From Escherichia coli (lineage in GTDB: Bacteria > Pseudomonadota > Gammaproteobacteria > Enterobacterales > Enterobacteriaceae), in assembly GCF_036507355.1 (NCBI RefSeq), contig NZ_AP027877.1: DNA of 64,000 nucleotides. One strand, given 5' to 3'. Shown here one piece after another: positions 50,323 through 56,143 of this stretch; position 1 is the stretch's first letter; each line of letters opens with the position of its first letter. Both the position numbers and the translations under genes were made by a program. The notes below the pieces were generated by a model. That model saw only the letters and a list, made by a program, of their open reading frames with translations. It was not told the DNA's origin and ran no database searches.

Positions 50323-50485
50323 TTGTGAGTATCTCACGTTCTCAGTGTGCTGGGCAAAAAGACATCGCAAAATCTGGAGCAGGCACGCAAAACAGAATTG
50401 AAAGTTGCGGGGAAGAAAAATGCCGCTCTGTTTGAGTGGGCGGCATTTGTGAAGGCTGAAAAGTAAGAATTGGCGTTACGAGTTA

Positions 50486-50502
50486 TTCAATGTTCTGAAT
50501 CT
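50486..50502. repeat. attR-like direct repeat (tcaatgttctgaatctg) of the integrative element
   Basis: 16 of 17 bases identical to 58622..58638 at the other end of the integrase-containing block. Confidence 0.7.
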
Positions 50503-50647
50503 GAATATTGAATTGTGGGTTATATGTATTGATATTTAAATGATTTTTGTTTTTCTGGTTTTGCTTGTGTACACGTAGGGGTACATGGATTTACAGGGAT
50601 TACAATTTTTATTGTGTGATTTATGACCAATTGTAATTTTGTGTAAG

Positions 50648-50929
50648 TCACGCCGTGATCTTCATTAAAACATTATCAACAAAAACCCATTCGGGGTGAG
50701 AGGTGGGCGCTGGCATTTTTGTTTTACGTTCGCGCCGTGGATCTGCGATTTCAAAGGCTGGCGTCATAAATCTGAAAGTCATTGCTTCCGCATAAGCCTG
50801 GCTGAATCCATAACGACGCAGCTCATGAATTAACGCCTCATCATCCAGATCCAGCGCGTAAACCTCTTCAGCAATAGCGGCGGCAATCTGTAGGCGGGTG
50901 CTGTTGGGCAAGCGGTTCACATTCAGCAT
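50648..50929 (-). CDS. Hypothetical protein (cargo of integrative element)
   Basis: ORF 50648..50941; second ATG (MLNVNRLPNST) has a GGAG RBS; no recognisable domain. Confidence 0.45.
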   Translation of the reverse strand: MLNVNRLPNSTRLQIAAAIAEEVYALDLDDEALIHELRRYGFSQAYAEAMTFRFMTPAFEIADPRRERKTKMPAPTSHPEWVFVDNVLMKITA

Positions 50930-50944
50930 GACAGACTCCATCAG

Positions 50945-50975
50945 GTCAAAAGAAACCGCCTTTCGGCGGCGCTTG
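50945..50975 (-). terminator. Putative rho-independent terminator downstream of the 134-aa/62-aa gene pair
   Basis: On the minus strand: stem GCCGCCG-AAA-GGCGG followed by TTTCTTTTG. Confidence 0.45.
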
Positions 50976-51048
50976 GCAGTGAGGGAAGGTTACGGGCAGA
51001 TAAGCATCAGGTAGCAGTACAGCATCACACAGAGCGCATATGCCTCAG

Positions 51049-51237
51049 TCATGATTTCCCCGCATAGAAGTTCTGGTTAAATAGCTTCTGACTCATCCCC
51101 GTACTATCCGCTTTGCCACCAGAATAAAAAGCCTTGTTAAAGTCAGATTGACTGCTACCACTGAAGGAAGTGCCAGTTTTGCCCTCTCGCGCTTCACGCG
51201 CTTTTCTCAATGCCTCGATTACGGATGCTTTACTCAT
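51049..51237 (-). CDS. Hypothetical 62-aa Ser/Gly-rich protein, translationally coupled to the upstream gene
   Basis: Start ATG overlaps the stop of the 134-aa ORF (ATGA); internal FNKAFYSGG / FNQNFYAGK repeats. Confidence 0.5.
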   Translation of the reverse strand: MSKASVIEALRKAREAREGKTGTSFSGSSQSDFNKAFYSGGKADSTGMSQKLFNQNFYAGKS

Positions 51238-51638
51238 CGTGCAAACCCTCGTGTAATACTGGTGTAACCTCGACCGGCTGCTTTGCTCAGTTCATTCAGG
51301 CCATTGGTCACAACCTTCGATTCCCAACCGATAACCCCATTAATAGAGCGCGGCAAAGGGAAGTTCCCGTCCCTGCTCCATTCCTTCAATTTGGCAGTGG
51401 TGAGTGCTTTGCCATATTGGCGCTGATATCTCACACAAACATCATCAGGGCTTACCAGACCCACTTTGCTGAGGCCCAACGGCGAGTGAGAGTATTCGAT
51501 TTGCTTTACATACCAACCATCACCAACGGCGTACAGACCGGATGGATGGCGCTTACACTCATCAGCTTGGCGGCGTTGTTCTGCTGCTTGCTTTTGTTCA
51601 ATCAAAATTGTTTCTAACTCAGTCATTGGTGTCACCAT
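51234..51638 (-). CDS. Hypothetical 134-aa protein, first gene of a coupled two-gene module
   Basis: ORF with no recognisable domain; operator-like repeats directly upstream. Confidence 0.5.
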   Translation of the reverse strand: MVTPMTELETILIEQKQAAEQRRQADECKRHPSGLYAVGDGWYVKQIEYSHSPLGLSKVGLVSPDDVCVRYQRQYGKALTTAKLKEWSRDGNFPLPRSINGVIGWESKVVTNGLNELSKAAGRGYTSITRGFAR

Positions 51639-51643
51639 TAAAA

Positions 51644-51694
51644 TGTACTAGCGTGAGGGTACATTATACCAACCGTACTAGCTTGCTGGTACAA
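51644..51694. promoter_or_regulatory. Two 19-bp operator-like repeats (GTACTAGC-N6-GGTACA) upstream of the coupled gene pair
   Basis: tgtactagcgtgagggtaca and cgtactagcttgctggtaca, about 30 bp centre to centre; each contains inverted GTAC half-sites. Confidence 0.45.
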
Positions 51695-52041
51695 TATTCA
51701 CACCAAATAAGTGATTGTTTGGCACACCATCAAAGCGCAGCAGTAAGGAGCGCCTCGGCACTGGGAACAGTGTTCGGGGTTTTCTTTTAGGGCCAGCAGA
51801 GATGTAAGGTAAATCGTGGTGTAGGTGATATCAGATGAATCGGCGATAACCCGAAAACGGTTAGCAAATGTCAGTAGCTGATAAGGTATGAAATAGTAAG
51901 CAAGCGAACCATTCGTAGGGGTAATGTCAGGGTAACGTAATGGTGATATCAGGGTTATCTTAGGGAAGAGGTTAGGTTGGGGTCAGCAAAATGGTAGGGC
52001 ATTATGAGCCTACATTCTTCTTACCCCAAGATGCGGGGGAA

Positions 52042-52497
52042 TTATTTGTTGAGGAACTCACTGTTTTCTAAGCATTTGTATTTGATGTAATCGACCGCTG
52101 TCGGAGTGGTCACAGTAGCAAATTCCTCAAAGACTTTTTTCTTTTCAGTATCGACTATTGTTTTAAGCTCTTCTTTGAATTTCTTTTCTTGTCCCTCCTT
52201 CCACTCCGTGGCAATAAATAGGCATGATTTCCCCTTCTGACTAGCAATTGGATCTAATTGTGAAAGCGCCATTTCAGCTCTCTTGTAAGCCTCTTCAAAT
52301 GATACCTCTCCACCATTACGCGAAACAATTTCAACAAGCTGATTAGCTAATTTGCTCTTTTGTTGTTCTGCCAATCTCCCGGACATTTCAGCCAATGCTC
52401 CGGCATGTACAGTGGCAGTAGCCAAGAGTGTAAGTGTGATAATAGCTATACTTTTCAATTTCTTGTCCTTATTTGTTGTTATGTGAACATATCCCAT
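52042..52497 (-). CDS. Hypothetical secreted protein with Sec signal peptide
   Basis: 151-aa ORF; KKLKSIAIITLTLLATATVHA signal-like segment, Lys/Glu-rich mature part; ATG start. Confidence 0.55.
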   Translation of the reverse strand: MGYVHITTNKDKKLKSIAIITLTLLATATVHAGALAEMSGRLAEQQKSKLANQLVEIVSRNGGEVSFEEAYKRAEMALSQLDPIASQKGKSCLFIATEWKEGQEKKFKEELKTIVDTEKKKVFEEFATVTTPTAVDYIKYKCLENSEFLNK

Positions 52498-52556
52498 ATC
52501 TGATTATCTCAAAACCTACATCATTTGGTATGTTTTTCAGGTTTATATATTTTGCT

Positions 52557-52666
52557 TGTCCCATCTGTCCCGTTGTCCCATAGATTTTATATATATTGTA
52601 TTTCATATGGTTAGCTTGTTTTTTTATGGGACAAGAATGGGACAAAGCGGGACAGGTTTTTGTCCC
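52557..52666. repeat. Iteron module 1: three direct TGTCCC repeats, AT-rich spacer, three inverted GGGACA repeats (plus one more TGTCCC); candidate replication origin
   Basis: Hexamers at 52557, 52566, 52574 (TGTCCC) and 52628, 52639, 52649 (GGGACA), 52661 (TGTCCC); immediately downstream of the helicase gene. Confidence 0.6.
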
Positions 52667-52758
52667 ATTGAAGTTTTTTGTTTGAAACACATACAAATTT
52701 GGTTGGTGTAGGTGGGCTGGTCGCAAAAAAACACCCGCACAGTGGCGGGCATTGGTTC

Positions 52759-54465
52759 TCAATCTTCGAGGCTGTCACGATGGATTATGTAACATCTGAC
52801 GCGACCCAAACCGGGCAGATATCGACGATCTGGTTTGGTGATACCCTTCGCCTGTAAAACGCTGGCAGCTCGTCTGGCATCAAGTCCGGCAAAAATCACT
52901 TTCCAGCCTTCAACCGGGATAATGTACTCGTCATCTTTAATAAACCCAACTCGCGCCGTCGGTATCTCATCTGGTTTATTAGCGTCCTGAAAACGCGCCC
53001 CGTCACGCACTATGGTTTGTCTGATACGCTCGACGATCTCATTATCTTCATGGCTTTCCGTACCTCCTCTACGCTCAATCCATGCGGTAAAGCAGACTTT
53101 CGCCGCTTCTGTCGCAGTTCCCGGACTCCAACCCGTTATCTCAGAAGACAGTTCGCCAGCATAGGCCGCTATGGCGAACTTCTCAGCAACACGCCCGATC
53201 TGACCGGAAGGGTCTTCAGCTACAGAATTAAGAAAGGCCGATTTAAAATCGCGCCAGCCCTCCTTAATGGTGTCGTAATTGATAGTCAGGTGATCAAGCC
53301 ATGCGTTAAACGCTGTACCGTGATTTTCTCGTACTGCCTTGTCCAGACGGTCAGCAAACAAAGCGCCGTTTGCCTCTCCGTGAATCGTGTCGAAACAGGC
53401 AAATTCGCAGTTATCAGCAGGTATGTTAATCACTCGCATTTCCTGCCCGGCATATGTACTTTTCCGAACCGAATCAGCATGGGATTTGAGATCAATTTCA
53501 CCATTGGATAATAGCGCCAAACACCATTGCTGAATCTCTTTGGCTGTTCCGTTTTTGGTGCTTCGTTGCTTGCCTTTCCCATTCGGAAGCATGTACGCGA
53601 TTTCCCCGGCTTTGCTTGCGTCTACTTGTGCGATTTCATCAAGGCACAGAAGGCCGTCATTATGGCGTGCTGCGATACCTTCCAGCCCGTTATCTGTCGC
53701 ACGCCATGAGCGAATATATTCTTTGGGGTCGGAAATAACAGAAGCGGCAACCGTCATTGACCGGGATTTGCCTGAAGATGATGCCCCTACATAATGGAAG
53801 CAGAATCCATCAACTCCCAGCATGGTGAGCATAGGGGACAGGAACGCAGTAGATACCGCCAGAATCAGACGACTATTACCAACGCACAACGCCGCCACTT
53901 CATCGCGCCATGTCGCCAGGGTGCCGCAGGATGGCTCTGGCTTTACTCGGGCATTAACCTGATAGACAACCATATCTTTATCAATTGGGTTAAATGTCCG
54001 CACCGGGGTCACGTATACGGCAGGTTTAAACCAACCGCAGCGAGTAACGCAGGTTAACCGGCTTTGGTGGGATTGCCCTTTGAGATAACGGATGAACGCC
54101 TTCTCATCCCAGATACGCAGGCCGCCGTTAACCAGAATGCTAATGGCTTCAGCTCCTCCATTTGCGTAAAGTGAAGTCGCAGGCATCGCCCATTTCTTTG
54201 GCATCCCGTCACGGTCACACCATGACAGAAGTTTGCCCCACGACTCGTTATCCTTGTCTCTGGTTTCCGCAGTGACCTCAATAACATCAGATATACAGAC
54301 GGGTGCCGGATTGGGGTTTTTCTCCGTTGGTGCTCTGTAGAAGTAAACGCCAGCATCCCCGCGTTCCCTGTCGTACTCCCGATGTACCCAGTAAAACGGC
54401 GGCAGCTTTTCGGCTGGCGGGTTGTCTTTGTGGACTGATAAATCAATCACGTTGTTCGTGCTCAT
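52759..54465 (-). CDS. DUF927-type P-loop helicase (replicative helicase of P4 alpha / D5 type)
   Basis: Walker A-like GASSSGKS; start ATG (MSTNNVIDL) overlaps the primase stop (ATGA); original ORF 52759..54480. Confidence 0.7.
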   Translation of the reverse strand: MSTNNVIDLSVHKDNPPAEKLPPFYWVHREYDRERGDAGVYFYRAPTEKNPNPAPVCISDVIEVTAETRDKDNESWGKLLSWCDRDGMPKKWAMPATSLYANGGAEAISILVNGGLRIWDEKAFIRYLKGQSHQSRLTCVTRCGWFKPAVYVTPVRTFNPIDKDMVVYQVNARVKPEPSCGTLATWRDEVAALCVGNSRLILAVSTAFLSPMLTMLGVDGFCFHYVGASSSGKSRSMTVAASVISDPKEYIRSWRATDNGLEGIAARHNDGLLCLDEIAQVDASKAGEIAYMLPNGKGKQRSTKNGTAKEIQQWCLALLSNGEIDLKSHADSVRKSTYAGQEMRVINIPADNCEFACFDTIHGEANGALFADRLDKAVRENHGTAFNAWLDHLTINYDTIKEGWRDFKSAFLNSVAEDPSGQIGRVAEKFAIAAYAGELSSEITGWSPGTATEAAKVCFTAWIERRGGTESHEDNEIVERIRQTIVRDGARFQDANKPDEIPTARVGFIKDDEYIIPVEGWKVIFAGLDARRAASVLQAKGITKPDRRYLPGLGRVRCYIIHRDSLED

Positions 54466-55331
54466 GCCACTGCCTCCCATTTCTTGACCAGTTCATTTTT
54501 GTGATCGTTCCAGTCGCCATGTCTGGACGGGATTAGCAGCTCGCAACGGTAGCGACTTGCCGCATCAATGGCTTTAGTTACTCCCGGGTTGCCATCTGTA
54601 TTCGCATCATTATCGGCGGCAATGATGATGCGGGCGCGTGGAAATTCACTGCGCACACTCTCAGATACCTCTCGCAGGTTTCCGGCAGTAAAGGCGACAC
54701 AGACCGGGCAGCCCGTTACTTCTCGAACGGTGGCGGCGGTGGCATAGCCTTCAGCGATGAAAATGGTTTTGTCATTGACGACTAACCCGCCCAGCCAATA
54801 GCGTCCACCTTTCAATAGTGCGCCAGATTTAAAGCGCTTTGTGCCGTCCGGCATAATGTACTGAATGGACTGTACACTTCCGTACTGATCATGGATTGGA
54901 ATCAGTAACCAGTCACCAGATTGATAAATGCCATGCGCCCCAACACCTTTGCGCAATAGGTAAGGGTGATTATCACTGGCAGGAACTGCGCTACTAATCT
55001 TGGCTCTACATTCGGCAGCGGCGGCAACCTCAGCTTTACGCTGTATCGCTCCAATTGCCCGGCGTGCTTCCATCATCACGCGCTTACGTTCAATGCTGTT
55101 GACCTGTACACCATCGAGAAAGTGACACGCGGTTATGCCAGTTTTCCAGCTACCAAAAGCACAGCCCGCGCCATCAGGGAACGGGTAAGCCCAGCCATTA
55201 AGCGAGCCAGGTTTATCGCCCTCGATACGAAAGCGGGCAACGGTGCCGGGGATTAATTCCGGCAGTTCGCAAGGTATTACGCCAGCCTCGCGCATGGTGT
55301 CAGACAGGGATTGTCTTTGATGTGTAGTCAT
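54462..55331 (-). CDS. Toprim-domain DNA primase (P4 alpha N-terminal-like)
   Basis: ORF 54462..55388; ATG at 55331 (MTTHQRQSL) has an AGGAAA RBS; toprim-like acidic motif IIAADNDANTDGNPG. Confidence 0.65.
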   Translation of the reverse strand: MTTHQRQSLSDTMREAGVIPCELPELIPGTVARFRIEGDKPGSLNGWAYPFPDGAGCAFGSWKTGITACHFLDGVQVNSIERKRVMMEARRAIGAIQRKAEVAAAAECRAKISSAVPASDNHPYLLRKGVGAHGIYQSGDWLLIPIHDQYGSVQSIQYIMPDGTKRFKSGALLKGGRYWLGGLVVNDKTIFIAEGYATAATVREVTGCPVCVAFTAGNLREVSESVRSEFPRARIIIAADNDANTDGNPGVTKAIDAASRYRCELLIPSRHGDWNDHKNELVKKWEAVA

Positions 55332-55398
55332 ATATACTTTTCCTGTTACTGTGCTGGCGGGTCTGTCGCCAAACTTCACCGCCAGCAAGATTTAAAAG

Positions 55399-55860
55399 TT
55401 ACTCAGTATGATCAGCGGCATCCTTTGGGGTGCCGTTTTGCTTTATCCGGTCATTAATTTCCTCCAGCAAGTCTTCAGCCTTAACCAATTCTCTGATTGC
55501 CTTTGCTGTCCGCGCTGCCTCTGCTTCAGCTTTGTCGGCTGATTTTTTGGCTAACTGTTCGCGCCTTTCGGCTCTGGCTTGAGCATCCAACTCCCAATCG
55601 CATGAAAGGTGGCGGCCATCTAGATACCTGCTTACGATAACGCCTCTTTCATCCGTATCCTCATGAATGAACCACCAGCCATGCTTCTCGTTCATTAATT
55701 GCTGCAATGGTGAGCGATAGTGTTTACCTGCTATTTGAAGTAATTCGTCTTCACAAACAGGGCCATCAACCAGCGCGCGCCAGATTCGATATGCCTTTGT
55801 GCCTGGCTTAGGGATAGTGTGCAACGGCGCAGTAATCAGGATTTTCTCCCAGTTCTTCAT
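55399..55860 (-). CDS. Hypothetical protein translationally coupled to alpA
   Basis: Start ATG (MKNWEKILITAPL) overlaps the alpA stop (ATGA); charged C-terminal helix. Confidence 0.5.
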   Translation of the reverse strand: MKNWEKILITAPLHTIPKPGTKAYRIWRALVDGPVCEDELLQIAGKHYRSPLQQLMNEKHGWWFIHEDTDERGVIVSRYLDGRHLSCDWELDAQARAERREQLAKKSADKAEAEAARTAKAIRELVKAEDLLEEINDRIKQNGTPKDAADHTE

Positions 55861-56030
55861 TTTTTGGCCTCCAGCCATGAGTTGATTTCTGTTGAAGACC
55901 ATGCTGTAACGCGTTCAGAAAGTTTTATGGGTTTTGGTATCTTCCCGGTTCTTGCCCAGCGCCAAAGAGAAGAAACGCTAATTCCCAGTTGGTTAGCCAG
56001 GTCTTTAGGGCGTAAATATTGCGTTTTCAT
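55857..56030 (-). CDS. alpA: AlpA-family phage transcriptional regulator / excisionase-like HTH protein
   Basis: 57-aa product MKTQYLRPKDLANQLGISVSSLWRWARTGKIPKPIKL... typical of AlpA. Confidence 0.8.
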   Translation of the reverse strand: MKTQYLRPKDLANQLGISVSSLWRWARTGKIPKPIKLSERVTAWSSTEINSWLEAKK

Positions 56031-56143
56031 TTGGTATACCTCGCTCAACGCACTGCCACTCAGTGCTACGACAGCAAAGATAAAGGCATCCAGTGGCAGA
56101 TATAATGCGCAGCAAAGTAGGTCTTCACTTTCAAAGTAGGTCT

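What the first reader, a model, noticed from the sequence alone, without database searches (positions are those of the whole stretch)
51644..52041. Operator-like GTAC palindromes and a 350-bp non-coding stretch with G-rich short repeats upstream of the coupled gene pair
Two 19-bp sites (tgtactagcgtgagggtaca, cgtactagcttgctggtaca), each with inverted GTAC half-sites and about three helical turns apart, sit directly upstream of the 134-aa gene start, suggesting tight repression of the pair. Beyond them, 51695..52041 has no ORF of 60 aa or more on either strand and contains repeated GGTGATATCAG (51823, 51942) and several TAGGG/CAGGG motifs. This could encode a small structured RNA or hold further regulator sites.
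Basis: seen in the sequence. Interest (0 to 1): 0.45.

Follow-up and report, generated by a model that had tools for sequence, protein, structure and literature searches.

The report
Satellite promoter switch, small RNA, iterons
The flagged stretch is the control region of a late gene pair in a rare 8-kb phage-satellite-like island of E. coli: two palindromic operator sites over back-to-back promoters, a predicted 90-base regulatory RNA not in any catalogue, and a block of 11-base DNA repeats that probably binds a protein rather than encoding an RNA.

Summary
The window carries an 8.1-kb PICI-like island at the 3' end of yicC, with all genes on the minus strand. The finding lies between a secreted-protein gene and a coupled 130/62-aa gene pair, and has three parts.

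1. 51642-51696: two 24-bp palindromes (AATGTAC-N10-GTACATT type) inside a 30-bp tandem duplication. They overlap two back-to-back extended -10 promoters. In relatives the arms are conserved and the spacers vary, so they are operator-like. The binding protein is not identified.

2. 51702-51790, plus strand: a predicted ~89-nt sRNA with a 5' hairpin, an almost invariant single-stranded stretch and an intrinsic terminator. Its structure covaries across three diverged versions. The single-stranded stretch is complementary to the SD region of the 130-aa gene; this pairing is significant in relatives and marginal in this window. There is no Rfam match. Expression is untested.

3. 51791-52041: truly non-coding. 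It holds five 11-bp phased TTACCCTGAnA-like iterons (51913-51967). Relatives have them in variable number and orientation. Relatives carrying a DUF5681 gene cassette at this place lack them. It is most likely a DNA-level binding array (packaging-type site is my best guess, low confidence), not a structured RNA.

Overall: an ordinary kind of feature with new family members. Interest is moderate.

The parts
51642..51665 (.). Operator O1: AATGTACTAGCGTGAGGGTACATT, with perfect 7-bp inverted arms and a 10-bp spacer. It covers the last bases of the -10 and about +1 to +15 of the 130-aa gene promoter.
   Evidence: Sequence. Unique in the window. Arms are conserved and the spacer varies in L011, L032 and L007.
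51673..51696 (.). Operator O2: CCGTACTAGCTTGCTGGTACAAT, a weaker palindrome. It covers the -35/spacer region of the 130-aa gene promoter and the spacer and -10 of the sRNA promoter.
   Evidence: L007 and L010 have a near-perfect palindrome at this position (AATGTACTA-N6-TAGTACATT).
51645..51704 (.). 30-bp tandem duplication (2 units, 77% identical). Each unit carries one operator and one -10 element.
   Evidence: repeat D3.
51663..51671 (-). Extended -10 promoter TGgTATAAT of the 130/62-aa operon. The predicted transcription start is near 51656.
   Evidence: Read. A TG(G/A)TATAAT or TAGTACAAT box lies at the same distance from the ATG in all 14 loci. Not listed by the simple scan because the -35 is poor.
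51627..51656 (-). Predicted 5'UTR of the 130-aa gene, with the conserved box UUUAAUGGUGA (SD-like GGUGA at 51636-51632).
   Evidence: The box is out of frame with the gene in L004 and L007, so it is not the start codon.
51687..51695 (+). Extended -10 promoter TGgTACAAT for the divergent small RNA.
   Evidence: The equivalent in L004 is TGaTATTAT and in L013 TGgTACATT; L002 and L007 have weaker boxes.
51702..51790 (+). Predicted ~89-nt sRNA: 5' hairpin 51703-51722, single-stranded conserved stretch about 51719-51745 (TTGGCACACCATCAAAGCGCAGCAGTA), terminator hairpin 51753-51779 and U-run 51780-51788.
   Evidence: Fold z -2.44 on the plus strand against -1.29 on the minus strand. Pair cells that form: 92/95 on the plus strand against 79/95 on the minus strand. 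Covariance-model hits at the same place and strand in all lineages, and a single hit in the 64-kb window. 12 of 19 pairs change on both sides.
51791..52041 (.). Non-coding region C. It is conserved as a block: 95% identity to L011, whose flanking genes are 64-69% identical.
51913..51967 (-). Five 11-bp phased iterons, read on the minus strand: TTCCCTAAGAT AACCCTGATAT CACCATTACGT TACCCTGACAT TACCCCTACGA.
   Evidence: (D2). It is the only such phased array in 64 kb, and 0 of 100 shuffles give one. Homologous arrays occur in L010, L007, L011, L032, L058 and L061; L002, L005, L006 and L033 have them inverted.
51824..51834 (+). GGTGATATCAG copy 1. It is followed by ATGAATCG, a CAGATnAATCG-type motif that relatives also carry.
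51942..51952 (+). GGTGATATCAG copy 2. It spans the junction of iteron units 2 and 3.
51234..51626 (-). 130-aa orphan protein, the first gene of the controlled pair. I read an AlpA/Xis-like helix-turn-helix motif in its middle; no library confirms this.
51049..51237 (-). 62-aa hydrophilic protein, coupled to the 130-aa gene by an ATGA overlap. A terminator follows at 50970-50955.

Best explanation
The region is the control region of a conserved late or accessory module (130-aa, 62-aa and 93-aa genes) of a small PICI-like satellite island integrated at the 3' end of yicC.

Shown by sequence and comparison:
- Two back-to-back extended -10 promoters lie inside a 30-bp duplication.
- One promoter drives the 130/62-aa operon on the minus strand. 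The other points the opposite way and is followed after about 89 nt by a canonical intrinsic terminator.
- Two 24-bp palindromes (consensus half-site AATGTACT) overlap both promoters.
- The short plus-strand unit has a covarying 5' hairpin, an almost invariant single-stranded core and a terminator. It is present at the same place and orientation in every relative.

Inferred:
- A dimeric DNA-binding protein occupies the palindromes. It is not the element's AlpA, the 283-aa protein, the 167-aa protein or the 130-aa protein itself, judging by co-variation. O2 would shut both promoters; O1 would block only the mRNA promoter.
- The plus-strand RNA is a base-pairing sRNA. Its core (CACCAUCAAAGCGCAG) pairs with the SD region (UUUGAUGGUG) of the 130-aa mRNA and lowers its translation.
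- The sRNA is also fully complementary to any transcript reading through from upstream.

The separate upstream block (51791-52041) is not RNA. It is a DNA array of 11-bp helically phased iterons plus other short motifs, bound by an unidentified protein. Relatives carry a DUF5681 gene cassette at the same place instead, and the block is not required wherever the same replication genes occur. My best guess is therefore a packaging-recognition (pac/cosB-like) site.
For: **Island anatomy**
- int, alpA-like HTH, toprim primase, DUF927 helicase, and att repeats at 50463-50503 / 58598-58638.

**Operators**
- They are unique in the window: 2 found against 0.16 expected.
- The arms are conserved and the spacers vary in L011, L032 and L007.

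**Promoters**
- TG(G/A)TATAAT lies at a fixed distance from the ATG in 14 loci.
- TGgTACAAT lies on the opposite strand.

**sRNA**
- The fold is 5' hairpin, 22 unpaired nt, then terminator, with z -2.44.
- G-U pairs make the structure fit the plus strand only: 92/95 pair cells against 79/95.
- A model built from 5 family-1 sequences finds the diverged versions at the same place and strand in L002, L005, L006, L033 (23.4 bits), L013, L014, L031 (19.5 bits) and L007 (17 bits). It gives one hit in the 64-kb window.
- 93.9% of pair cells form pairs and 12 of 19 pairs change on both sides. 0 of 500 shuffles reach the covariation score, and slid controls give 31-49%.
- The single-stranded core is invariant except for one position, while the hairpins vary.

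**Pairing with the 5'UTR/SD**
- L011 p=0.006, L004 p=0.002, L002 p=0.013, L007 p=0.003.

**Region C**
- No ORF and no pseudogene signal.
- 95% identity to L011, against 64-69% for the flanking genes and about 89% for the backbone.
- The phased array is unique, with 0 of 100 shuffles giving one.
- Homologous arrays have 3-5 units, and are inverted in the L002 lineage.
- It is absent from L003, L004, L013, L014 and L031, which carry DUF5681 plus small ORFs there. L003 has the same primase and helicase (100% and 99.8%).
Against: - There is no expression data, so promoters, transcription starts and the RNA itself are predictions.
- In this window the sRNA:SD duplex is only marginal (-17.0 kcal/mol, p about 0.08). 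An A replaces the G that relatives have (UUUUAAUGGUG).
- L013 gave no signal when the terminator base was left out.
- One metagenomic relative (L058) has a 13-nt deletion that removes the proposed pairing core. The core may therefore be dispensable, or that copy may be decaying.
- The alignment used for one search was fitted to the model and contains one spurious row.
- Only about three independent sequence families exist.
- The simple terminator scan did not list the plus-strand terminator because its stem is bulged.
- No operator-binding protein was identified.
- For region C, no similarity to any phage or plasmid was found, and the operator was not found in viral contigs. The packaging reading rests only on position and on the alternation with the DUF5681 cassette, and the terminase-like role of DUF5681 is itself unproven.
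Confidence: 0.55

Rival explanations
1. The plus-strand unit is only an insulator. The divergent promoter is a by-product of the duplication. The hairpin simply stops antisense or divergent transcription from running into the upstream genes or the origin. The RNA has no regulatory role.
For: - Pairing with the SD is weak in this window.
- L058 lacks the core.
- In lineages with an upstream operon, the hairpin sits right after that operon's stop codon.
Against: - The 22-nt unpaired core is the best-conserved part of the unit in family 1, and is recognisable in all three families while the hairpins diverge.
- The U-run is always on the antisense strand.
- Pairing with the 5'UTR is significant in four lineages, using lineage-specific boxes.
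Confidence: 0.2
2. Region C is part of the island's replication origin: a second set of iterons for the primase or helicase, like ori plus crr in P4.
For: - In L032, L007 and L010 it lies 100-190 bp from the GGGACA iterons and AT-rich stretch, directly after the helicase gene.
- It occurs only in DUF927-type elements.
- 11-bp phasing is typical of iterons.
Against: - L003 has the same primase and helicase (100% and 99.8%) and the GGGACA iterons, but no region C.
- In this window a 138-aa gene separates region C from the GGGACA/AT-rich block.
- The repeat is unrelated to GGGACA.
Confidence: 0.25
3. Region C encodes a structured or repeat RNA: the first reader's idea, or a ToxI-like or sponge RNA.
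For: - Strong strand asymmetry (GC skew +0.37).
- Tandem short repeats upstream of a gene.
Against: - Fold z-scores are +0.23 on the plus strand and -1.8 on the minus strand.
- There is no Rfam hit even at E up to 10.
- The repeats are inverted relative to their neighbours in L002, L005, L006 and L033.
- The unit number varies from 2 to 5.
- The plus-strand sRNA terminator and the operon's own promoter lie between the repeats and the gene.
Confidence: 0.05
4. The locus is a type I toxin-antitoxin-like pair of the divergent class (as in tisB/istR-1 or zorO/orzO). The sRNA would be the antitoxin, and the 130/62-aa products would be toxic or abortive-infection effectors.
For: - The geometry is the same: a divergent sRNA next to its target, complementary to the target 5'UTR through a DNA-level direct repeat.
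- The promoter is under operator control.
Against: - The products are a 130-aa protein with an HTH-like motif and a 62-aa hydrophilic protein, not a short hydrophobic peptide.
- There is no PADLOC hit.
- The module is conserved across three satellite backbones next to packaging-type genes.
Confidence: 0.1

Closest known systems
Divergently encoded base-pairing sRNAs next to their target (istR-1/tisB, orzO/zorO, ohsC/shoB in E. coli); cited from my own knowledge
   Same: - A short terminator-ended RNA is transcribed away from the neighbouring gene.
- It is complementary to that gene's 5'UTR/RBS through a short DNA-level direct repeat.
- The target promoter carries an operator.
   Different: - The target is not a small hydrophobic toxin.
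- The element is a phage-satellite-like island.
- The pairing core is only 6-14 bp depending on lineage.
- Nothing has been tested experimentally.
Immunity RNAs of P4 (CI RNA) and P1/P7 (C4 RNA); cited from my own knowledge
   Same: A small RNA in a satellite or phage controls expression of adjacent genes by pairing near ribosome-binding or leader sequences.
   Different: CI and C4 are cut out of the same-strand leader transcript and pair with upstream sites of that transcript. Here the RNA is on the opposite strand, with its own promoter and terminator. There is no sequence or Rfam similarity.
Gram-negative PICIs (EcCICFT073 type) with Rpp and a PICI-specific cosB (PMC6739421; PMC6092414)
   Same: - Small island with int, alpA, primase/replicase, an origin after the rep genes, and a late operon.
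- A cis site with repeated elements that differs from the helper's is used for packaging specificity.
   Different: - No rpp, terS or capsid genes were recognised.
- No cosN-like or phage-like sequence was found.
- The helper is unknown.
- The role of region C in packaging is only a guess.
Palindromic operators of dimeric HTH repressors overlapping divergent promoters (for example phage immunity regions)
   Same: - Inverted arms are conserved and the spacer is free.
- There are two sites about three helical turns apart.
- The sites overlap the -10, -35 and +1 positions of two back-to-back promoters.
   Different: - No cognate repressor gene lies next to the operators.
- The operator type follows the replication-module type of the element, not any HTH protein.

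Membership tests
Intrinsic-terminator-ended base-pairing sRNA | Rho-independent terminator (GC-rich hairpin plus U-run) on the RNA strand | tested here: met
   Hairpin at 51753-51779 plus UUUUCUUUU. The U-run is on the same strand in all lineages.
Intrinsic-terminator-ended base-pairing sRNA | Own promoter at a suitable distance | tested here: inconclusive
   TGgTACAAT lies 7 nt before the model start. The boxes are good in family 1 and L013, and weaker in L002 and L007. There is no transcript-start data.
Intrinsic-terminator-ended base-pairing sRNA | Structure conserved with compensatory changes | tested here: met
   - 93.9% of cells pair, 12 of 19 pairs change on both sides, and 0 of 500 shuffles reach the score.
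- Caveat: the alignment was fitted to the model and there are few independent lineages.
Intrinsic-terminator-ended base-pairing sRNA | Conserved unpaired seed complementary to a target RBS | tested here: inconclusive
   - The core is invariant except for one position in family 1.
- The duplex is significant in L011, L004, L002 and L007.
- It is marginal here (p about 0.08) and absent in the L013 test.
- L058 has the core deleted.
Intrinsic-terminator-ended base-pairing sRNA | Detected transcript | not testable with these tools
   No RNA data are available.
Any Rfam family | Score at or above the gathering threshold | tested here: not met
   Only tRNA-Sec matches in the window. Nothing relevant appears at E up to 10 in 51500-52200.
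Type I toxin-antitoxin, divergent class | Small (under about 60 aa) hydrophobic toxin as target | tested here: not met
   The targets are a 130-aa protein with an HTH-like motif and a 62-aa hydrophilic protein.
Palindromic repressor operator | Inverted repeat with conserved arms and variable spacer, overlapping the promoter | tested here: met
Palindromic repressor operator | Identified cognate DNA-binding protein that co-varies with the site | tested here: not met
   - The AlpA-like HTH of L007 is 62.5% identical to that of L004, but their operators differ.
- The HTH-like region of the 130-aa protein is nearly the same in L007 and L004.
- The 283-aa protein is absent from L030, L002, L007 and L058.
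- The 167-aa homologue is replaced in L010, which has the same operator.
- Only the toprim/DUF927 module tracks the GTAC type.
Gram-negative PICI / phage satellite | int, alpA-like regulator, primase/replicase, att repeats, small size, no structural genes | tested here: met
   The island is 8.1 kb.
Gram-negative PICI / phage satellite | Induction and packaging by a helper phage | not testable with these tools
   No helper was identified. There is no similarity to phage records.
cos/pac packaging site | Similarity to a helper phage site, or a cosN-like cleavage sequence | tested here: not met
   There is no blastn match in 50,697 phage records.
cos/pac packaging site | Phased repeated elements for a small-terminase-type protein, next to packaging genes | tested here: inconclusive
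   An 11-bp phased array is present. It alternates with a DUF5681 cassette, but the function of DUF5681 is unknown.
Iteron-type replication origin | Co-occurrence with the cognate replication protein | tested here: not met
   This applies to region C only. L003 has the same primase and helicase but lacks region C. The GGGACA/AT-rich block at 52540-52680 fits this family better.
Type III TA repeat RNA (ToxI-like) | Tandem repeats of about 34-36 nt on the toxin strand, with a terminator before the toxin gene | tested here: not met
   The units are 11 nt, are inverted in one lineage, and a promoter and an opposite-strand terminator intervene.

The most novel reading that the evidence does not exclude
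The three-gene late module is shared by three unrelated satellite backbones: a DUF927 island, a YfjI island and a 13-kb ParA/VapE plasmid-like element with tail genes. In this reading, a previously undescribed sRNA-plus-operator switch gates the module. The cis iteron block and the DUF5681 gene cassette are interchangeable packaging-specificity cartridges. That would be the first RNA-level control of helper exploitation described in PICI-type satellites, and it would show how minimal satellites swap helpers.
Probability: 0.15. Interest if true: 0.65.

Novelty: new member of a known kind. Interest (0 to 1): 0.4.

Why it matters
Small PICI-like satellites of enterobacteria are common, but their late genes and their control are largely unknown.

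- A conserved sRNA with operator-controlled divergent promoters in front of an orphan gene module gives a concrete, testable handle on how such an island stays silent and switches on.
- The iteron block that alternates with a DUF5681 cassette is a candidate for the cis site that decides which helper packages the island.
- The sRNA family is absent from Rfam and could be added to it if expression is confirmed.

None of this changes known principles.

Tried and rejected
- **Rfam:** the gathering and E up to 10 scans gave nothing relevant.
- **Protein libraries:** Pfam, PHROGs, NCBIfam, PADLOC and PDB profile searches of the 130-aa, 62-aa, 93-aa, 138-aa, 167-aa and 283-aa proteins gave no informative hit.
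- **Structure of the 130-aa protein:** the AlphaFold model had mean pLDDT 51.6, too poor for a fold search.
- **Size of the 130-aa family:** the representative-library search found only about 3 clusters at 50% identity. The genome-contig scan gave only 2 loci.
- **Region C as a pseudogene:** tblastn with all proteins from the alternative cassettes hit only the 3' end of the 138-aa gene.
- **Region C as a copy of a phage or plasmid site:** no blastn match.
- **Iteron pattern in IMG/VR:** 15 hits, of which 13 are chance matches inside unrelated coding regions. L025 and L029 have ACCCTGACAT repeats around a tRNA-derived att site, but their integrase is unrelated to this island's (25% in the catalytic domain). 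I dropped the arm-site idea.
- **Metagenome scan with the iteron pattern:** 79 hits, only 2 genuine (L058 and L061).
- **Operator pattern in IMG/VR:** no hit.
- **PIME integrative mobilizable elements:** rejected, because no trb or tra genes are present.
- **Whole-sRNA duplex energies:** these were noisy because the terminator took part in the pairing, so I redid them with the sRNA body only.
- **Other targets of the sRNA core in the window:** none found.
- **Short upstream peptide on the gene strand at the ATGGTG-like box:** not conserved between lineages (read).
- **Lambda-like GCGGCGGCAAyCT strings at 50876 and 55017:** judged to be alanine-codon runs inside genes.
Full report
**Context**

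The window is E. coli chromosome. Between dinD and yicC lies an 8.1-kb island bounded by imperfect direct repeats at 50463-50503 and 58598-58638; the right repeat overlaps the 3' end of yicC. All its genes are on the minus strand:

| Feature | Coordinates |
|---|---|
| Integrase | 57182-58441 |
| 283-aa protein | 56144-56995 |
| AlpA-like HTH | about 55857-56039 |
| 167-aa protein | 55399-55902 |
| Toprim primase | 54462-55388 |
| DUF927 helicase | 52759-54480 |
| Terminator | 52753-52730 |
| Iteron/AT-rich block | 52540-52680 |
| 138-aa signal-peptide protein | 52042-52458 |
| The non-coding stretch of the finding | 51627-52041 |
| 130-aa gene | 51234-51626 |
| 62-aa gene (coupled) | 51049-51237 |
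| Terminator | 50970-50955 |
| 93-aa gene | 50648-50929 |

This is the layout of a Gram-negative PICI-type satellite. No packaging or capsid genes are recognisable. The island is rare: 36 of 5,426 complete E. coli genomes match the 2-kb neighbourhood, and only 4 carry the whole non-coding stretch.

**Checking the observation**

The two GTAC sites, their 30-bp spacing, the GGTGATATCAG pair and the TAGGG/CAGGG motifs are all present, with one-base coordinate corrections.
- The 19-nt site pattern occurs twice in 64 kb, against 0.16 expected.
- The stretch 51808-52041 has no ORF of 30 aa or more on either strand.
- The gene start is more likely ATG 51626 than 51638. The conserved ATGGTGA box lies 5-8 nt upstream of the ATG and is out of frame with the gene in two relatives. 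It therefore behaves as an SD-like element (GGUGA) and not as a start codon.

**Relatives**

The 130-aa protein belongs to a very small orphan family: 16 clusters at 90% identity and about 3 representatives at 50% identity among 1.8 billion proteins, with no Pfam match.

I collected its loci from E. coli genomes, Shimwellia, Kluyvera, Citrobacter, metagenomes and one Shigella 'plasmid'. The module of 130-aa, roughly 62-71-aa and 93-aa genes sits in three different backbones:
- DUF927-type islands such as this one.
- A YfjI-type island (L004).
- A 13-kb circular ParA/VapE element with tail-like genes (L013, L014, L031).

**Part 1: promoters and operators (51642-51704)**

On the minus strand a perfect extended -10 (TGgTATAAT, 51671-51663) lies 37 nt before the ATG. 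A TG(G/A)TATAAT or TAGTACAAT box is at that distance in all 14 loci. On the plus strand, 20 bp away, is a second extended -10 (TGgTACAAT, 51687-51695) pointing the other way. The two lie in successive units of a 30-bp tandem duplication.

Each unit carries one palindrome:
- **O1** is AATGTAC-N10-GTACATT (51642-51665).
- **O2** is a weaker copy (51673-51696).
- In L011 and L032 the O1 arms are unchanged while the spacers differ.
- L007 and L010 carry a single, nearly perfect site, AATGTACTA-N6-TAGTACATT, at the O2 position.

Conserved arms with a free spacer are what a dimeric DNA-binding protein would select. O2 covers the -35/spacer of the mRNA promoter and the spacer/-10 of the opposite promoter. 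O1 covers +1 to about +15 of the mRNA promoter.

Other backbones have different palindromes at the same place: ATATCAAT-N11-ATTGATAT in L004 and CCGTAAATCATTAACGG in L013.

I looked for the binding protein by co-variation.
- The AlpA-like proteins of L007 and L004 are 62.5% identical, but their operators differ.
- The HTH-like region of the 130-aa protein is nearly the same in L007 and L004.
- The 283-aa protein is missing from L030, L002, L058 and L007, which have GTAC operators.
- The 167-aa protein is replaced by a 20%-identical protein in L010, which has the same operator as L007.

Only the toprim/DUF927 module tracks the GTAC type. The binder may therefore be a replication protein, a helper protein or a host protein. 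It remains unknown. The operator pattern is absent from IMG/VR.

**Part 2: a predicted small RNA (51702-51790, plus strand)**

Every lineage has a GC-rich hairpin 100-150 nt upstream of the ATG. It is preceded, in gene orientation, by an A-run, which makes it an intrinsic terminator for the opposite strand. In the window the hairpin is CCTCGGCACTG-GGAA-CAGTGTTCGGGG followed by TTTTCTTTT (51753-51788). The simple scan missed it because the stem is bulged.

From the plus-strand promoter this gives an RNA of about 89 nt. It folds into a 5' hairpin, a 22-nt unpaired stretch and the terminator. The fold z-score is -2.44, against -1.29 for the complementary strand.

Among five family-1 sequences the unpaired stretch TTGGCACRCCATCAAAGCGCAGCAGTA is invariant except for one position, while both hairpins change.
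- 92 of 95 pair cells are standard pairs on the plus strand, against 79 of 95 on the minus strand.
- The difference comes from G-U pairs, and one pair is fully compensatory.

A covariance model of these five finds the sequence-diverged versions of the other lineages at the same place and strand. Scores are 23.4, 19.5 and 17 bits, and these are the only such hits in those loci. The model gives one hit in the 64-kb window.

On the resulting alignment:
- 93.9% of cells pair.
- 12 of 19 pairs change on both sides.
- No shuffle of 500 reaches the covariation score.
- Sliding the partner columns drops pairing to 31-49%.

Two caveats apply: the alignment was fitted to the model, and there are few independent lineages.

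The core CCAUCAA(A)GCGCAG is recognisable in all families. At the DNA level it is one copy of a direct repeat whose other copy is the 5'UTR/SD box of the 130-aa gene. The opposite-strand RNA is therefore complementary to the SD region.

| Lineage | Duplex test, sRNA body against 5'UTR (p, shuffled-UTR control) |
|---|---|
| L011 | 0.006 |
| L004 | 0.002 |
| L002 | 0.013 |
| L007 | 0.003 |
| This window | about 0.08 (one A-C mismatch) |
| L013 | no signal as cut |

Some lineages add their own matching boxes, such as ACTACGCT in L007 and GTCAATC in L013. L058 has a 13-nt deletion of the core.

There is no Rfam match, and my literature searches found no description of such an RNA in PICIs.

I conclude that an sRNA gene is likely. 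Its action on the SD is plausible but unproven. A cis-antisense role against read-through transcripts is equally possible.

**Part 3: region C (51791-52041)**

Region C is not a decayed gene. It is not similar to any phage or plasmid record. It is not unusually structured as RNA.

It contains five 11-bp units on the minus strand (51967-51913): TTCCCTAAGAT, AACCCTGATAT, CACCATTACGT, TACCCTGACAT, TACCCCTACGA. This is the only such phased array in the window, and none appears in 100 shuffles.

Homologous arrays occur in relatives:
- 3-5 units in L010, L007, L011, L032, L058 and L061.
- Two units in inverted orientation in L002, L005, L006 and L033.
- Other shared short motifs (CATTTGCTRACC, CAGATnAATCG, GTTAGCAA) also change orientation between lineages.

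This points to DNA-level protein binding, not to an RNA.

Against L011, region C is 95% identical. The flanking genes are 64-69% identical and the backbone about 89%.

Region C is absent from L003, L004, L013, L014 and L031. These have a DUF5681 protein plus small ORFs at that place. L003 has the same primase and helicase as the window, so region C is not needed by that replication module.

A more typical origin lies at 52540-52680: three TGTCCC, an AT-rich spacer and three GGGACA. A second similar cluster lies at 57050-57160.

My best guess for region C is a packaging-recognition array, analogous to the PICI-specific cosB of EcCICFT073 (PMC6739421). No direct evidence supports this, and the role of DUF5681 is unknown.

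**Verdict**

- The palindromes behave as operators.
- There is probably a small RNA, but it lies at 51702-51790 on the plus strand.
- The G-rich repeats are a DNA iteron array.

These are known kinds of elements. The sRNA family, the operator and the iteron block are undescribed members in a rare satellite.

Noticed in passing
window 52540-52680: Likely origin of replication, directly after the helicase gene and its terminator. It has three TGTCCC repeats, an AT-rich spacer of about 50 bp, three GGGACA(A/G) repeats and one more TGTCCC. The same layout occurs in L032, L007 and L011.
   Followed up: partly
window 57050-57160: A second cluster of the same GGGACA/TGTCCC repeats (3 plus 4 copies around a spacer). 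It lies between the integrase stop and the 283-aa gene start, about 4.5 kb from the first cluster. This recalls the ori/crr pair of P4, or it could be an early-promoter operator.
   Followed up: partly
window 50463-50503 and 58598-58638: Imperfect 41-bp direct repeats (73% identical, sharing ...TTCTGAATCTG) that bound the island. The right copy overlaps the 3' end of yicC, so the island integrates into the end of yicC and restores it.
   Followed up: partly
window 56113-56150: A perfect 19-bp tandem duplication (CAAAGTAGGTCTTCACTTT, twice) at the junction of the 283-aa gene end and the alpA-like ORF.
   Followed up: no
window 31705-31795 (minus strand): tRNA-Sec (selC), 83.8 bits. selC is a classical island integration site, but it is about 19 kb from the island studied here.
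   Followed up: no
L031 (NZ_CP055032.1, whole record): A 13.3-kb circular 'plasmid' of Shigella flexneri. It carries ParA, an Arc-like protein, a tyrosine recombinase, toprim, VapE, DUF5681, the 130-aa and 68-aa pair with its sRNA-like unit, and baseplate/tail-like genes. It looks like a plasmid-borne satellite. L013 and L014 are near-identical 13.9-kb metagenome contigs.
   Followed up: partly
L058 1363-1438: A natural variant of the predicted sRNA with a 13-nt deletion that removes the proposed anti-SD core. The same locus has a CTAG to CCAG change in O1.
   Followed up: partly
L025 2150-2700 and L029 (IMG/VR contigs): Multiple ACCCTGACAT repeats flank a tRNA 3' fragment next to an integrase gene, so they look like arm-type sites. 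That integrase is unrelated to this island's, so the resemblance to the iterons may be coincidence.
   Followed up: partly
window 51679-51687, 51860-51867; L007 and L002 region C: The O2 spacer contains AGCAAGCTA, and region C and its relatives repeat GTTAGCAA. From memory these resemble the SlyA/RovA consensus TTAGCAAGCTAA. This was not tested.
   Followed up: no
window 50930-51048: The intergenic stretch with the terminator 50970-50955 between the 62-aa and 93-aa genes is 99% identical in L030, although the flanking genes are 71% and 85% identical. The 93-aa gene therefore seems to be a separate, conserved transcription unit.
   Followed up: no
window 52042-52458: The 138-aa protein has a signal-peptide-like N-terminus. 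Its middle is highly diverged in L011 (58% aa identity) while both ends are conserved. Homologues in L002 and L004 sit next to a TM2-domain protein. It may be a cargo or surface-exclusion gene.
   Followed up: no
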